This document shows, one piece after another, positions 3,327 through 17,615 of a DNA stretch of 47,028 bases; position 1 is the first letter of the stretch; each line of letters begins with the position of its first letter. The stretch is from IMG/VR virus record IMGVR_UViG_2778261425_000003. One strand, 5' to 3'. The stretch comes from a virus. Taxonomy: Duplodnaviria; Heunggongvirae; Uroviricota; Caudoviricetes. The notes beneath the pieces were generated by a model, which did not search any database, was not told where the DNA came from, and worked only from the letters and a program-made list of their open reading frames with translations. The translations under genes and the position numbers were made by a program.

Positions 3327-3596
3327 ACGGACAAACAATCATGCAACCAGAAGTTGAAGTATTAACCGATCATAATGAGCTAATTTGTTCGAGCTTTATT
3401 GAACACATTGCCAACACATTAAATTTAGGAGTGGTGTACAACTAAACCTGCAGCCAAGGATGTATAGTGAGCGAAGCCCTATCAGGCCTTTTTGGTCAGT
3501 AGATAAGATTGATCTTCGTTGATAGAATTTACTTACACCAGCTGTTACATTAAGATAATTTTTTGGTGGGAGAATGATAAGATCTTACGTAACAAT

Positions 3597-3652
3597 TTGA
3601 TTTTAATGGTGCCGATAATAGGAGTCGAACCTACGACCTTCGCATTACGAAT
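3597..3652. repeat. attR: 56-bp direct repeat of the thrW 3' end (55/56 identical to 45575-45630)
   Basis: ttgatttTaatggtgccgataataggagtcgaacctacgaccttcgcattacgaat repeated at 45575-45630; covers the 3' 46 nt of the tRNA plus 10 nt of flank. Confidence 0.85.
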
Positions 3653-3872
3653 CATAAGAATCCGCTTCTAATTCAAAGTATTACCCCATCAACACTGCGC
3701 TCACACGTCCCACCACATCAAAACATGTAAAGCCTTGCAAGCCATTGTGAGGCCTTATGTGTCTCAGTTTTGTCCCACTACGACCTGCACAGAAAATAAG
3801 AAAATAGCGGTGATATCAAACAGTACAGAAGTCTTTTTTCTTTCAAATGGAGAAACTGATTAACCCGTTTAA

Positions 3873-4100
3873 TTGTACTCCTCATGGGTAATCAGCAGTC
3901 CTCAGAGTAATGGAATGGCAGAAAGATTCGTGAAAACGATGAAGGAAGACTACATCGCGTTCATGCCGAAACCGAATGTAAGAACGGCATTGCATAATCT
4001 TGCAGTGGCGATCGAACATTACAATGAAAACCATCCGCACAGTGCGTTGGGTTATCGCTCTCCGCGAGAATATCGACGTCAGCGGGTAACGTTAACTTAA
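3873..4100 (+). pseudogene. IS3-family (IS2-like) transposase C-terminal fragment
   Basis: 75-aa ORF ending ...[30 protein letters not shown]; only the last part of a transposase, no upstream catalytic region or inverted repeat. Confidence 0.6.
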
Positions 4101-4141
4101 GATACACCCCCTGTCTGGAAATAAGGGGGCAAGAACAATGA

Positions 4142-14341: not shown

Positions 14342-14378
14342 GAAAATAAAAAAGCCACCTATTAGAAGGTGGCCTTGT
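14342..14378 (-). terminator. rho-independent terminator of the tail-operon moron
   Basis: On the minus strand: hairpin AAGGCCACC/GGTGGCCTT (14352-14376) followed by TTTTTTATTTT. Confidence 0.7.
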
Positions 14379-14393
14379 AATGAATTTTATTAA

Positions 14394-14924
14394 TTAGCGA
14401 GTCAGAAACAACGAATCTTTATACTTTTGCTGTTGTTCATTTAAATACTTAGCTGTTTCATCGCTGGCAAATGGAAATATTACCGTATTTTTAGGCATGG
14501 TAATTTCTTTTTTGTCCAGCGTCAAAGTAAACATAGGAACATACTGAGCAGAGTAACGCACCGCAGAAACGAGCTCTAGTTTAGACTCTTCAATAACACT
14601 CAAATTATCCAGGCTAACTTTCTCTTCATCTTTTTTCTTTGACGCATTTAAAGTTTTTATTACTTTATTTAATTTCTCCTGAAAATCCTCCTTAAAGTTT
14701 TCAGGATTGCCGTCGACAATAAGAATCTGTTCACCCTGATTATCTGGAAAAATAATCTTTGCACTTATCAATTTATTTTCTTTATAAACATCACCAAGTT
14801 TTATGGCTCCTCCAGATAACTGAATAATATGTTCATCTTTAAAGGAGATGTTGCCAGAGATTATGAGAGATGAAAAAATAGCCGCTACTCCAAGAATTAC
14901 ACTTGCTGTGATATAGCCTTTCAT
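14394..14924 (-). CDS. moron: hypothetical membrane-anchored or exported protein, very low GC
   Basis: 176 aa, N-terminal hydrophobic segment ITASVILGVAAIFSSLIISG, Lys/Glu-rich; inserted between the tape measure and DNA circulation genes with its own promoter-like element and terminator. Confidence 0.7.
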   Translation of the reverse strand: MKGYITASVILGVAAIFSSLIISGNISFKDEHIIQLSGGAIKLGDVYKENKLISAKIIFPDNQGEQILIVDGNPENFKEDFQEKLNKVIKTLNASKKKDEEKVSLDNLSVIEESKLELVSAVRYSAQYVPMFTLTLDKKEITMPKNTVIFPFASDETAKYLNEQQQKYKDSLFLTR

Positions 14925-14949
14925 TTTTCGCCTATTAACATTTTTCTAA

Positions 14950-14977
14950 ATGTGCATTAATTCTATCACTCTATTTA
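14950..14977 (-). promoter_or_regulatory. putative sigma70 promoter for the moron (TTGTAA, 16-nt spacer, TAGAAT)
   Basis: Minus-strand -35 at 14977-14972 and -10 at 14955-14950, about 25 nt upstream of ATG 14924. Confidence 0.45.
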
Positions 14978-15015
14978 TGACTTACAACCAGCAATACATG
15001 TGAGGGGAATCCTGG

Positions 15016-16848
15016 CTACCAAAATCGGGTATAGCCAACATCGTGATTTATATCAATGCCACTGGAGCGTGTTTCCGTAACCCGCATACCTGGTGGCATA
15101 TTTATAAATGATACTTTGATCTCACCATCAACTTTTGGCGCGGTAGCTTTATTAATCATGAAGGGATTCGGGCCTGTGGCACCGGAGGCGTTGTTTGCCT
15201 GAGCCGGATCCACCGCCGGATAAGGAGTGTATCCCCGTGCCGGTATTCCCGTCCCATAAGCATCATAAGCACCCGCGCCCCACTGCGCAGAGTTAATGGC
15301 ATCGACCGTGTCACCGGAACTGTCGGTAAACCACTCAATAATTGGCTTCAGCTTGTCCCACATATCCTGAAACCACTTAACAACCGGCCCCCAGTTATTG
15401 ATCACCATCCCCAGCGGCGACCAGGCAAAAACTTTCTTAAGGAGTTCCCAGCCAGCCTCAAAATAAGGACCAATGGTTTCCCAGAGCTTCTTGAAATAAG
15501 GTCCGACAACATCCCAGTTAGTGATAATTAATCCCGCAGCCAGGGCTATCGCCGTCGCAATCATGCCAATCGGCGTCATCGACATGATCCTGCTGACAAT
15601 GCTGATGGCACCGCCCACGCCCATCAATCCCAGTTTCAGAATCGCAAGACCGGCAGCAAGCCCGACGACGCCGCGAATAACCCGGGGATTTTCATCCGCA
15701 AACTTCGTGAATTTTTCCCCCAACTCCCCCAGCCATTGCGTGATATTTTTAGCGTCACCAGAAAATGCGCCGCCAATAGCTGCAAGACCGTTAGTTGCGG
15801 TCCCCGTCATTGCCTCCCACAGGTTGGACAGCGTACCAAGCTGTGCCTGAACACGTTTATTCAGGCTGGCCTGTTTATTCATCTTCTGCTGGATCTGATC
15901 GTAACCATCCTTTCCTTTATCGATCAGAGCATTGACCACCTGAAGGGTTTCGGCATCATCACCAAATATTGCCTTAAGTACACCGGTTCGCTTAACGTCG
16001 GTCAATTTTCGCAGCTTTGCCAGTTGCTTAAACATGTTATCAAGACCGCCAAAACTCCCTTTGCCGTCAGTAAAATCGAGCTGTACCCCGAGTTTCTGGC
16101 GGGCCATAACTTTATTAACGTCCCTGATTTTCTTAACGCTTAATCCGGACTGGATAACTTTTCGCAGGGCATTACCTGCCGACTCCCCGTTCATCCCCAT
16201 CTGATCCATCATGACGCTGATGGGGGCAAGGCTCTGTGCAGCCTGAAGACCGTCCTTGTTCACCATCTTCAGAACAGAACTGGTTTTAGTGAAGAAGGAC
16301 AACATGTTGGTATCGTCAACGCCCAGATAAAACGCCTTCTGGATAGTGTCGAACAGCCCCATCATGTCTTCTGACGCCGTTCCGGTAGCATCCTGCATCT
16401 TTGCGGCAAACTCGGCAGCCGCTTCCGGTGTTTTTTTCAGTTGTACCGCAAGATAAGCTGTCGCTTTACCCACACCGCCAAGAATGTTTTCTGCCGGGAT
16501 CCCCTGACGCACCAGCATCTGCATCATGTTCTGAAAATCAGCCGTTGTACCGGGTAGCTGGTTACCCAGACCAATAGCCAGTTTATTGATGTCCTGAAAG
16601 CTCTTTCCGACCTCACCGTTCGCATCCATCATGGCAACTTTCAGCCCGGTGGCGGCGTTTTCCTGATCGGCATAAGATTTCAGGGAAAGCGTCAGACCCG
16701 CTGCCAGTCCGCCACCAAGCGCCAGCCCACCCTGTGACGCTTCTTCCGCCTGGCGTTTAAATCCCCGGATTTTCTTTTGCATTTTCGACAGCGCGGGAGA
16801 AAGCCTGTCGACACCGGTGATCAACGCCTTAAGCTCAAATTCAGCCAT
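15016..16848 (-). CDS. tail tape measure protein
   Basis: 610 aa, Ala/Gly-rich with hydrophobic central segments; downstream of the chaperone frameshift pair. Confidence 0.8.
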   Translation of the reverse strand: MAEFELKALITGVDRLSPALSKMQKKIRGFKRQAEEASQGGLALGGGLAAGLTLSLKSYADQENAATGLKVAMMDANGEVGKSFQDINKLAIGLGNQLPGTTADFQNMMQMLVRQGIPAENILGGVGKATAYLAVQLKKTPEAAAEFAAKMQDATGTASEDMMGLFDTIQKAFYLGVDDTNMLSFFTKTSSVLKMVNKDGLQAAQSLAPISVMMDQMGMNGESAGNALRKVIQSGLSVKKIRDVNKVMARQKLGVQLDFTDGKGSFGGLDNMFKQLAKLRKLTDVKRTGVLKAIFGDDAETLQVVNALIDKGKDGYDQIQQKMNKQASLNKRVQAQLGTLSNLWEAMTGTATNGLAAIGGAFSGDAKNITQWLGELGEKFTKFADENPRVIRGVVGLAAGLAILKLGLMGVGGAISIVSRIMSMTPIGMIATAIALAAGLIITNWDVVGPYFKKLWETIGPYFEAGWELLKKVFAWSPLGMVINNWGPVVKWFQDMWDKLKPIIEWFTDSSGDTVDAINSAQWGAGAYDAYGTGIPARGYTPYPAVDPAQANNASGATGPNPFMINKATAPKVDGEIKVSFINMPPGMRVTETRSSGIDINHDVGYTRFW

Positions 16849-17023
16849 GTGTGCGTTTCTCCTGCTCTATCCTGTTTGCCTGACTGACCAGCAAGGGAAT
16901 TTCACTGATCGGCATATTCAGCAATTCGAAGGGATTAATGCGCCAGTAGCTGGCGCAGTCAAAGAAGCGATCAGTGAGGTATTCAGCCGTCAGGCCTGGA
17001 GGAAAAAACCAGCCACAAGCCAC
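16841..17023 (-). CDS. tail assembly chaperone, -1 frameshift extension ORF
   Basis: Overlaps the 3' end of 16990-17259 in the -1 frame; slippery heptamer T TTT TTC at 17008-17002. Confidence 0.55.
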   Translation of the reverse strand: MACGWFFPPGLTAEYLTDRFFDCASYWRINPFELLNMPISEIPLLVSQANRIEQEKRTHG

Positions 17024-17259
17024 GCCGCTGCATTCAGGTCTGCCGGAGACATCTGGTCGACAGAGCTTTGCGGCACTTTCGCCAGCCGCACAATGTATTT
17101 CGACACCACATGCGCCAGAAGTCTGACGGACTCATCCTGATTCATCTGGTAGGGATACCCCAGCTCGCGGACATCCTTCCCGGTGGGTTCATCAAACTCC
17201 AGTACGGAGAGTGTCTCACCATGAGCGATAATCGGTTTCTTTAACTCAAGCTCTTTCAT
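16990..17259 (-). CDS. tail assembly chaperone (between tube and tape measure)
   Basis: 89 aa; conserved position; ends 6 codons after the slippery site. Confidence 0.6.
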   Translation of the reverse strand: MKELELKKPIIAHGETLSVLEFDEPTGKDVRELGYPYQMNQDESVRLLAHVVSKYIVRLAKVPQSSVDQMSPADLNAAAWLVAGFFLQA

Positions 17260-17615
17260 TACTGGTAATCCCCTTCTTCACCGTGGAACTCAAGATCAAC
17301 CGTGCCTTCTTCGGCATTATGGTTCGCTTCTCCGTGCAGCCAGGCGGACGACAATACATAGACCTGACCGTTCGCCAGCTCGGCAGTGATAGTCATCTCA
17401 TCAGACGAGGTGATTTTGCTCACCGGAAAATTCTTCGGCACCTTGAAGGTCCCTTTGACATAAGGCGCACGGTGAGTTTCCTTGCGGTCCACTGAACCGT
17501 CCAGGCCGATGATGTCATCATTGACCGTCCTGTTCATGGGCACCTCAATGCCGCCGGTCAGCGATAGCTGCTGACCGTCAATTTTGAAATAACAGGTTCC
17601 CCCGATACGGGCCAT
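17259..17615 (-). CDS. tail tube protein (contractile tail)
   Basis: 118 aa immediately downstream of the sheath gene. Confidence 0.7.
   Translation of the reverse strand: MARIGGTCYFKIDGQQLSLTGGIEVPMNRTVNDDIIGLDGSVDRKETHRAPYVKGTFKVPKNFPVSKITSSDEMTITAELANGQVYVLSSAWLHGEANHNAEEGTVDLEFHGEEGDYQ

What the first reader, a model, noticed from the sequence alone, without database searches (positions are those of the whole stretch)
16841..17259. Programmed -1 frameshift site in the tail assembly chaperone pair
Two overlapping ORFs lie between the tail tube and tape measure genes. The downstream ORF is in the -1 frame and overlaps the end of the upstream ORF exactly at a slippery heptamer T TTT TTC (minus strand, 17008-17002), six codons before the upstream stop. 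This is the conserved chaperone frameshift (lambda G/GT analogue) and shows the tail module is intact.
Basis: partly seen in the sequence, partly recalled or inferred. Interest (0 to 1): 0.4.

Follow-up and report, generated by a model that had tools for sequence, protein, structure and literature searches.

The report
Tail chaperone -1 frameshift, P2 type
This is the well-known programmed -1 ribosomal frameshift that lets a phage make two versions of its tail assembly chaperone from one start codon; it is real and very strongly conserved, and ordinary.

Summary
On the minus strand an 89-aa ORF (17259-16990, Pfam Phage_TAC_7) lies between the tail tube and tape-measure genes. It carries an in-frame T_TTT_TTC at 17008-17002. 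The -1 frame stays open to 16841, which is 8 nt into the tape-measure gene.

The window is an SfV/SfII-like E. coli/Shigella prophage (99% nt identity). I compared 156 distinct relatives (about 38-100% aa identity):
- 154 keep an in-frame T_TTT_TTN at the homologous Phe-Phe position.
- The codon before the heptamer always ends in T, whatever it encodes.
- 90 of those 154 have no possible start codon in the -1 frame upstream of the heptamer.
- Third-position variation switches from frame 0 to frame -1 at the heptamer.

Phage P2's E/E+E' site is annotated and, per the literature, experimentally shown. It has the same layout: TTTTTTG and an 8-nt overlap with gene T. Phage Mu itself has no such heptamer and is reported to use a -2 shift, so the site is P2-type, not Mu-type.

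No stimulatory structure at a canonical distance is supported. A conserved 8-bp GC hairpin lies 44 nt downstream and is unexplained. GenBank and RefSeq records do not annotate the fusion.

Verdict: already known kind, low interest.

The parts
17259..17615 (-). Tail tube gene (118 aa). Its stop overlaps the chaperone ATG (TAATG).
   Evidence: Pfam PF10618 Tail_tube, E=2.4e-33. ORF list.
16990..17259 (-). Tail assembly chaperone 'G' ORF, zero frame, 89 aa, stop TGA at 16992-16990.
   Evidence: Pfam PF10109 Phage_TAC_7, E=2.4e-15, 56.7 bits against cut-off 25. phrog_166 tail protein, E=4e-23.
17002..17008 (-). Slippery heptamer T_TTT_TTC in X_XXY_YYZ phase (zero-frame codons GGT TTT TTC).
   Evidence: Read directly. 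It is the only in-frame heptamer in the ORF. An in-frame T_TTT_TTN sits at the homologous position in 154 of 156 distinct relatives. The preceding codon always ends in T.
16841..17002 (-). 'T' segment. After the slip the -1 frame is read from the re-read C at 17002 (CCT CCA GGC ...). It adds 53 aa and stops at TGA 16843-16841. The predicted GT fusion is 86 + 53 = 139 aa.
   Evidence: Translation. phrog_32181, E=4e-40. Third-position variation follows the -1 frame here: entropy 0.43/0.26/0.94 for codon positions 1/2/3. The peptide is conserved in distant relatives.
16990..17131 (-). Stretch where the zero frame and the -1 frame are both open (about 47 codons).
   Evidence: Stop-codon map of the -1 frame.
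15016..16848 (-). Tape measure gene (610 aa). ATG at 16848, AGGAG at 16863-16859, 8-nt overlap with the end of the T segment.
   Evidence: Pfam PF10145, E=1.1e-26. Sequence. The same 8-nt overlap is seen in P2 and most relatives.
16939..16957 (-). Conserved 8-bp GC-rich hairpin UGCGCCAG-CUA-CUGGCGCA inside the T segment, 44 nt 3' of the heptamer. Role unknown. Possibly associated with the frameshift region.
   Evidence: -13.7 kcal/mol, z=-4.5. 100% paired in 78 distinct sequences. Stem wobble positions are nearly invariant (0-0.10 bit) against a median of 1.0 bit elsewhere, Mann-Whitney p=9e-4, while the loop wobble varies. One compensatory G-C to A-U change and several G-U-preserving changes.

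Best explanation
This is a programmed -1 ribosomal frameshift of the lambda G/GT and P2 E/E+E' kind.

**Proposed mechanism.**
1. All ribosomes start at the chaperone ATG (17259).
2. Most terminate at TGA 16992-16990 and make the 89-aa chaperone.
3. A minority slip when tRNA-Phe occupies both the P site (UUU) and the A site (UUC) on U_UUU_UUC.
4. Both tRNAs re-pair one base back, on UUU UUU.
5. The next codon read is CCU, and translation continues in the -1 frame for 53 more codons. This yields a 139-aa fusion that ends 8 nt inside the tape-measure gene.

**Inferred function.** By analogy with lambda, the shared N-terminal part binds the tape-measure protein. The frameshift-specific C-terminal 'T' part recruits the tube protein. 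The fixed ratio of the two products is needed for tail assembly. Neither product stays in the virion.

**Shown here:** the anatomy, the family membership, the conservation of the site, the lack of an independent start, and translation of the -1 frame (from substitution periodicity).

**Inferred, not shown:** that slippage is ribosomal, its efficiency, and the protein-level roles.
For: - Anatomy and phase of the heptamer.
- Position between Tail_tube and the tape measure, and membership of Phage_TAC_7.
- 154 of 156 distinct relatives at about 38-100% aa identity keep an in-frame T_TTT_TTN at the same Phe-Phe position. The -1 extension has a median of 49 codons, against 5 codons for the +1 frame.
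- The distance from the heptamer to the zero-frame stop varies from 5 to 23 codons, and that tail is unconserved.
- The codon before the heptamer always ends in T although it encodes Gly, Ser, Arg, Asn or Pro.
- 90 of the 154 relatives that carry the heptamer have no ATG, GTG or TTG in the -1 frame between its upstream stop and the heptamer.
- Third-position variability follows frame 0 upstream of the heptamer and frame -1 downstream of the G stop.
- P2 E+E' is annotated as a -1 frameshift at TTTTTTG with the same 8-nt overlap with gene T. Its N-terminal part hits the same Pfam family.
- Literature: the frameshift is conserved in long-tailed dsDNA phages and the lambda mechanism is described (PMC5009743). 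The P2 TTTTTTG site is described in PMC3091744.
- U_UUU_UUC is one of the heptamers that shifts above 0.1% in E. coli without a stimulator, and H_HH.U_UU.Y is in the most efficient class (PMC4066793).
Against: - No direct evidence for the fusion protein in this phage.
- The records examined (SfV, SfII-like, RefSeq E. coli) do not annotate the fusion.
- No 3' stimulatory structure at the canonical 5-9 nt is supported. Lambda and P2 also lack one, so this is not a strong objection.
- The T part does not hit Pfam PF06528, the P2 E' domain. It matches P2 E' only weakly by profile comparison (E=8e-4, probability 24%).
- Two relatives lack the canonical heptamer: L187 (GGG TTT TTT) and Paraburkholderia phage IPK (TTC TTC).
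Confidence: 0.9

Rival explanations
1. The frame change is made by RNA polymerase. Transcriptional slippage on the T6 run would add one U to a fraction of mRNAs, and ordinary translation of those mRNAs would give the same fusion.
For: The site is a homopolymer run. U7 and A7 runs are said to be avoided in E. coli genes, partly because of transcriptional slippage (PMC4066793). The sequence data here cannot formally separate the two routes.
Against: The run is only 6-7 nt in all 154 relatives and was never lengthened, although longer runs slip much better (established knowledge). The homologous P2 event is described as a translational frameshift (Christie et al. 2002, as cited in PMC3091744). 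The heptamer is always in exact X_XXY_YYZ phase.
Confidence: 0.05
2. The second ORF is an independent small gene, started at GTG 17023 or at an internal ATG, and no frameshift occurs.
For: Some records call it as a separate 60-aa hypothetical protein (phrog_32181).
Against: There is no Shine-Dalgarno before GTG 17023. 90 of 154 relatives have no start codon at all in that frame upstream of the heptamer. Conservation of the -1 peptide begins exactly at the heptamer, with FFP.G.
Confidence: 0.03
3. The heptamer and the overlapping open frame are coincidental, and the 141 nt between the chaperone stop and the tape-measure start is untranslated spacer.
For: TTTTTTY is common in the window (47 copies). 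PGAP leaves the interval unannotated.
Against: The interval shows protein-coding periodicity in the -1 frame. It stays open for 30 or more codons in every relative. It encodes a conserved peptide down to about 38% identity of the chaperone.
Confidence: 0.02

Closest known systems
Phage P2 E / E+E' programmed -1 frameshift (FETUD tail operon)
   Same: - Same Pfam family for the upstream part (PF10109).
- Same position between the tube gene and the tape-measure gene.
- T6 slippery run at the homologous G-F-F/L position.
- -1 extension of about 50 codons.
- Identical 8-nt overlap of the fusion stop with the tape-measure start.
- No stimulatory structure reported for P2 (PMC3091744).
   Different: - The heptamer is TTTTTTC here and TTTTTTG in P2.
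- The zero-frame tail is 5 codons here and 8 in P2.
- The T part does not hit PF06528 and resembles P2 E' only weakly.
- Pairwise BLASTP of the two fusions is not significant (E=0.41).
- This clade carries a conserved hairpin 44 nt downstream.
Phage lambda G / GT frameshift (Levin, Hendrix & Casjens 1993; Xu, Hendrix & Duda 2004, 2013, 2014)
   Same: Same logic: a chaperone gene before the tape-measure gene, a low-level -1 shift near its end, and a fusion whose extra domain is thought to recruit the tail tube subunit (PMC5009743).
   Different: Lambda is a siphovirus and uses G_GGA_AAG with tRNA-Gly and tRNA-Lys. No detectable sequence similarity was found. The efficiency in P2-like phages is said to be 2-3 times higher than in lambda (PMC5009743).
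Phage Mu gp41 (tail assembly chaperone, reported -2 frameshift)
   Same: The surrounding tail genes of the window are Mu-like: sheath L, tube M, N and P homologues. Mu gp41 scores marginally on PF10109, at 24.7 bits, just under the cut-off of 25.
   Different: Mu gp41 is 144 aa and belongs to PF23746. It has no in-frame X_XXY_YYZ, and its open downstream frame is +1. This is consistent with the -2 shift reported for Mu (PMC2628397, PMC5009743).

Membership tests
Conserved tail-assembly-chaperone frameshift of long-tailed phages (G/GT type) | The gene pair lies between the major tail or tube gene and the tape-measure gene. | tested here: met
   Tail_tube at 17259-17615 and tape measure at 15016-16848 flank the pair.
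Conserved tail-assembly-chaperone frameshift of long-tailed phages (G/GT type) | The second ORF overlaps the end of the first in another frame and has no start of its own. | tested here: met
   The -1 frame is open 17131-16841. There is no Shine-Dalgarno at GTG 17023. 90 of 154 relatives have no start codon upstream of the heptamer in that frame.
Conserved tail-assembly-chaperone frameshift of long-tailed phages (G/GT type) | A slippery sequence in the correct phase lies within the overlap. | tested here: met
   T_TTT_TTC at 17008-17002 in X_XXY_YYZ phase.
Conserved tail-assembly-chaperone frameshift of long-tailed phages (G/GT type) | The site and the downstream frame are conserved among relatives despite sequence divergence. 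| tested here: met
   154 of 156 distinct relatives keep the site. Substitution periodicity switches frame at the heptamer. The T peptide alignment is conserved.
Conserved tail-assembly-chaperone frameshift of long-tailed phages (G/GT type) | The fusion protein is produced at a set low ratio and is required for tail assembly. | not testable with these tools
   Needs proteomics, a reporter assay or genetics.
Pfam PF10109 Phage_TAC_7 (P2 gpE, Mu gp41) | HMM score above the gathering threshold. | tested here: met
   56.7 bits against a cut-off of 25, covering residues 4-86.
Pfam PF06528 Phage_P2_GpE (the E' part of P2 E+E') | HMM match of the frameshift-specific C-terminal part. | tested here: not met
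   No hit at E<=1 for the 55-aa T part, whereas P2 E+E' scores 76.3 bits. Profile comparison with P2 E' gives E=8e-4 but only 24% probability. Distant homology is possible but unproven.
Mu gp41-type chaperone (PF23746, -2 frameshift) | Gp41_Mu domain, with the downstream ORF in the +1 frame. | tested here: not met
   The window protein hits only PF10109. Its +1 frame extends only 2 codons past the stop.
Canonical -1 frameshift signal with a 3' stimulatory structure | A stable, conserved hairpin or pseudoknot starting 5-9 nt after the heptamer. | tested here: not met
   The proximal hairpin is only -4.4 kcal/mol with z=-1.0, and it is paired in 76.6% of cells with no covariation. The strong conserved hairpin begins 44 nt downstream.

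The most novel reading that the evidence does not exclude
The 8-bp GC hairpin at 16957-16939 may be a functional RNA element of this prophage clade. It sits in the T-only segment, 44 nt past the slip site, and has near-invariant stem wobble positions.

Possible roles:
- It could tune the G:GT ratio from a non-canonical distance, for instance by stalling a leading ribosome so that a trailing one queues near the heptamer.
- It could protect the sparsely translated 141-nt stretch before the tape-measure gene from Rho or RNase E.

Either role would be a new accessory feature of an otherwise classical chaperone frameshift.
Probability: 0.25. Interest if true: 0.35.

Novelty: already known. Interest (0 to 1): 0.15.

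Why it matters
The main value is for annotation.

- The same chaperone/tape-measure region is present in 1112 of 5426 complete E. coli genomes.
- The GenBank, RefSeq and PGAP records examined give only the 89-aa chaperone. They leave the 141-nt T segment unannotated, or call it a separate hypothetical protein.
- A 139-aa fusion that is probably essential for tail assembly is therefore missing from these annotations.
- The survey also gives a clean example of nucleotide-level constraint. T_TTT_TTN is kept from Enterobacteriaceae to Burkholderia, Pseudomonas and Derxia prophages.
- It shows that 'Mu-like' tail modules can carry a P2-type rather than a Mu-type recoding site.

None of this changes what is known about the mechanism.

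Tried and rejected
1. **Proximal stimulatory hairpin** (GGCC-UGAC-GGCU, 5 nt after the heptamer). It is weak (-4.4 kcal/mol, z=-1.0) and poorly conserved (76.6% paired, no covariation). Rejected.

2. **Long 10-bp stem** (window 16977-16968 with 16911-16902) enclosing the hairpin. It contributes to the strong fold of the region (z=-3.9). It is paired in only 79.6% of cells. Its apparent double changes come mostly from one Pantoea-type clade in which the helix does not form. Not supported beyond the SfV clade.

3. **Long-range pairing of UUUUUCCU at the slip site with the tape-measure Shine-Dalgarno AGGAGAAA**, proposed by RNAalifold. It shows only one-sided changes. In a duplex-energy scan of 114 relatives, a median of about 10% of the scanned windows (from 240 nt upstream of the heptamer into the T segment) pair at least as well, and the best partner is usually elsewhere. 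Rejected as a composition effect.

4. **Full-length 'fused' proteins in the protein database** (P0001-P0006). I hoped they were natural fusions. Their sequences show scattered indels and frame noise, so they are assembly errors.

5. **Alignment-based scan of genome contigs with distant homologues.** It failed for lack of a conserved stretch and was repeated with closer sequences.

6. **Rfam scan of 16700-17300.** Nothing credible.

7. **PDB sequence search with the fusion.** Only spurious light-harvesting-protein hits.

8. **Literature on this exact phage group.** Christie et al. 2002 was not held in the library. No accessible paper describes the frameshift specifically for SfV, SfII or SfI.
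Full report
**1. The observation**

Read on the minus strand, the genes run in this order:
- tail sheath, 19111-17615, 498 aa
- tail tube, 17615-17259, 118 aa
- an 89-aa ORF, 17259-16990
- tape measure, 16848-15016, 610 aa

Pfam confirms these identities:

| Gene | Pfam family | E-value |
|---|---|---|
| sheath | Phage_sheath_1 | 9.7e-34 |
| tube | Tail_tube | 2.4e-33 |
| 89-aa ORF | Phage_TAC_7 ('tail assembly chaperone proteins E, or 41 or 14') | 2.4e-15 (56.7 bits, cut-off 25) |
| tape measure | PhageMin_Tail | 1.1e-26 |

The last zero-frame codons of the 89-aa ORF are GGT TTT TTC CTC CAG GCC TGA.

The -1 frame is open from 17131 to a TGA at 16843-16841. That stop overlaps the tape-measure ATG (16848) by 8 nt (ATGGCTGA). 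After a -1 slip the next codon is CCT, and the predicted fusion is 86 + 53 = 139 aa.

The heptamer is the only in-frame X_XXY_YYZ in the ORF. TTTTTTY is frequent in the window, with 47 copies on both strands against 28 expected. From that count I estimate about 0.02 in-phase copies by chance in the 47-codon overlap. That is suggestive, not conclusive.

**2. What the window is**

The 1.2 kb around the site is 98-99% identical to Shigella phages SfII, SfV and SfI and to Escherichia phage vB_EcoM-689R6.

The same region occurs in 1112 of 5426 complete E. coli genomes.

None of the records examined annotates a frameshift:
- SfV and RefSeq/PGAP list only the 89-aa 'tail protein' or 'phage tail assembly protein' and leave a 141-nt gap.
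- One record calls the -1 ORF a separate 60-aa hypothetical protein.
- PHROGs holds that separate ORF as phrog_32181.

**3. Comparative test**

I collected relatives from four sources:
- annotated phage records
- one genome per bacterial species
- IMG/VR viral contigs
- Mu and P2 themselves

After removing duplicates, 156 distinct chaperone-end regions remain. They span about 38-100% aa identity to the window protein. Hosts range from Escherichia, Citrobacter, Edwardsiella and Pantoea to Pseudomonas, Burkholderia and Derxia.

Results:
- 154 of the 156 carry an in-frame T_TTT_TTN at the homologous Phe-Phe position: 149 TTTTTTC, 4 TTTTTTT and 1 TTTTTTG.
- The -1 frame continues 30-199 codons (median 49) beyond the chaperone stop. 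The +1 frame continues a median of 5 codons.
- The zero-frame tail after the heptamer varies from 5 to 23 codons and is not conserved.
- The -1 peptide is conserved (FFP.G...[YF]W[RK].NP...QANRI).
- The codon before TTT TTN always ends in T, whether it encodes Gly (146), Ser (4), Arg (2), Asn (1) or Pro (1). This is a nucleotide-level constraint.
- In 90 of the 154 there is no ATG, GTG or TTG in the -1 frame between its upstream stop and the heptamer. Independent initiation upstream of the conserved peptide is therefore impossible in those sequences.
- In a 78-sequence alignment, variability sits at zero-frame third positions upstream of the heptamer (entropy 0.34/0.00/1.23 for positions 1/2/3). 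It sits at -1-frame third positions downstream of the chaperone stop (0.43/0.26/0.94). The translated frame changes at the heptamer.

The two exceptions:
- One IMG/VR contig has GGG TTT TTT, which differs by two synonymous changes (L187).
- The unverified Paraburkholderia phage IPK has TTC TTC (L090).

Database proteins that look like natural fusions (P0001-P0006) are indel-ridden assemblies.

**4. Mechanism**

*Shown:* the anatomy, the family membership, the conservation, the absence of an own start, and translation of the -1 frame.

*Inferred from established knowledge:*
- tRNA-Phe(GAA) occupies both the P site (UUU) and the A site (UUC).
- Both tRNAs can re-pair perfectly one base back.
- In E. 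coli, U_UU.U_UU.C is among the heptamers that shift above 0.1% without any stimulator. H_HH.U_UU.Y is in the most efficient class, and UUC is the second-best A-site codon after AAG (PMC4066793).
- In lambda, the G part of both products binds the tape-measure protein. The T part binds the tube subunit. The roughly 30:1 ratio is essential, and neither product is in the virion (PMC5009743).
- In P2-like phages the efficiency is reported to be 2-3 times higher than in lambda (PMC5009743).
- The P2 site is TTTTTTG, giving E (91 aa) and E+E' (142 aa) (PMC3091744; annotation).

P2's layout matches the window closely. The run lies at G-F-F/L, there are 8 codons to the zero-frame stop, the -1 extension is 50 codons, and the overlap with gene T is 8 nt.

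**5. P2-type, not Mu-type**

The flanking genes are Mu-like. Mu gp41 differs from the window's chaperone in several ways:
- It is 144 aa and belongs to PF23746.
- It has no in-frame slippery heptamer.
- Its open downstream frame is +1, extending 43 codons.

This fits the -2 shift reported for Mu (PMC2628397, PMC5009743).

The window protein is in PF10109, as is P2 E. The T part does not hit PF06528, the P2 E' domain. It aligns with P2 E' only weakly in a profile comparison (E=8e-4, probability 24%). Pairwise BLASTP of the two fusions is not significant.

**6. Stimulatory elements**

- The region 17010-16900 folds unusually well (z=-3.9).
- The hairpin at the canonical distance (5 nt) is weak (-4.4 kcal/mol, z=-1.0). 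It is paired in only 76.6% of cells.
- RNAalifold proposed pairing of the slip site with the tape-measure Shine-Dalgarno. Only one-sided changes support it, and it is no better than a median of about 10% of the other windows scanned from 240 nt upstream of the heptamer into the T segment.
- Rfam finds nothing.

Like lambda and P2, the site probably works without a canonical stimulator.

**7. An unexplained side feature**

An 8-bp hairpin, UGCGCCAG-CUA-CUGGCGCA (16957-16939, -13.7 kcal/mol, z=-4.5), lies 44 nt after the heptamer. It sits in codons C-A-S-Y-W-R-I of the T part.

- It is 100% paired in 78 distinct sequences.
- Its four degenerate stem wobble positions have 0-0.10 bit of entropy, against a median of 1.0 bit for 41 other codons of the T segment. 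Only 2 of those 41 are as low (Mann-Whitney p=9e-4).
- The loop wobble has 1.14 bit.
- In the wider set there are G-U-preserving changes (TAT; TGC replacing CGC; GTC). There is one compensatory G-C to A-U change (AAA...TAT, n=2) and its single-change intermediate (n=1).
- The hairpin is lost in the CAKYW[KNEQ] clade (57-62% identity) and in more distant clades that still keep the heptamer. It is therefore not required for the frameshift as such.
- Its distance is far outside the range of known -1 stimulators.

**8. Verdict**

The finding is correct and its interpretation is supported. It is a textbook case: a close analogue of the P2 E/E+E' site, and probably its homologue, in a very common prophage family.

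Its practical value is for annotation. The only mildly new element is the conserved distal hairpin.

The statement that the site 'shows the tail module is intact' goes beyond the evidence. The neighbouring genes are full length and form an uninterrupted overlapping gene train. The one break in that train is an inserted low-GC gene cassette between the tape-measure and DNA-circularisation genes.

Noticed in passing
window 16939-16957 (minus strand): A conserved 8-bp GC hairpin lies inside the T-only coding segment, 44 nt past the slippery heptamer. Its stem wobble positions are nearly invariant while the loop and flanking wobbles vary. One compensatory change was seen. The hairpin is lost in more distant clades that still keep the heptamer. 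Function unknown.
   Followed up: partly
window 14351-14987 (minus strand; ORF 14394-14924): A low-GC cassette (32-33% against about 53% around it) is inserted between the tape-measure and DNA-circularisation genes. It is absent from SfV, where that intergenic gap is about 45 nt. It encodes a 176-aa protein with a hydrophobic N-terminus. There is no Pfam or PADLOC hit, and it matches phrog_5485 (unknown function). A promoter-like site lies at 14987-14960 and a terminator-like hairpin at 14376-14351, so it looks like a moron. About 166 of the 1112 E. coli genomes that carry this tail region seem to have it. Megablast finds no match in the phage collection.
   Followed up: partly
L274 (NZ_AP035757.1), L002 (SfV NC_003444), L001 (ON470584): RefSeq/PGAP and GenBank records of this prophage family annotate only the 89-aa chaperone. 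The 141-nt T segment is left blank or called as a separate 60-aa hypothetical protein. The 139-aa fusion is never annotated.
   Followed up: yes
proteins P0001-P0006, P0008, P0115: Apparent 'fused' or extended chaperone proteins in the large protein collection come from single contigs with scattered indels and frame noise. They are assembly artefacts at and around the T6 run, not natural fusions.
   Followed up: yes
L187 (IMG/VR contig, 98.8% identical) and L090 (Paraburkholderia phage IPK, PV588664): These are the only two of 156 distinct relatives without the canonical heptamer. L187 has GGG TTT TTT, from two synonymous changes that shift the T run by one base. IPK has GGC TTC TTC with a 68-codon -1 extension. 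They could be a sequencing error, a decaying prophage or an alternative recoding site.
   Followed up: no
L086 (phage Mu, NC_000929, locus 3553-4132): Mu gp41 has no in-frame X_XXY_YYZ. Its +1 frame is open for 43 codons past the stop and ends 14 nt before the tape-measure start. This is consistent with the -2 frameshift reported for Mu. 'Mu-like' tail modules therefore carry two different recoding solutions.
   Followed up: partly
protein P0120 (Candidatus Williamhamiltonella defendens): This chaperone homologue ends ...AGFFFPG in the zero frame. That suggests a longer T run or a different phase at the slip site in this symbiont prophage.
   Followed up: no
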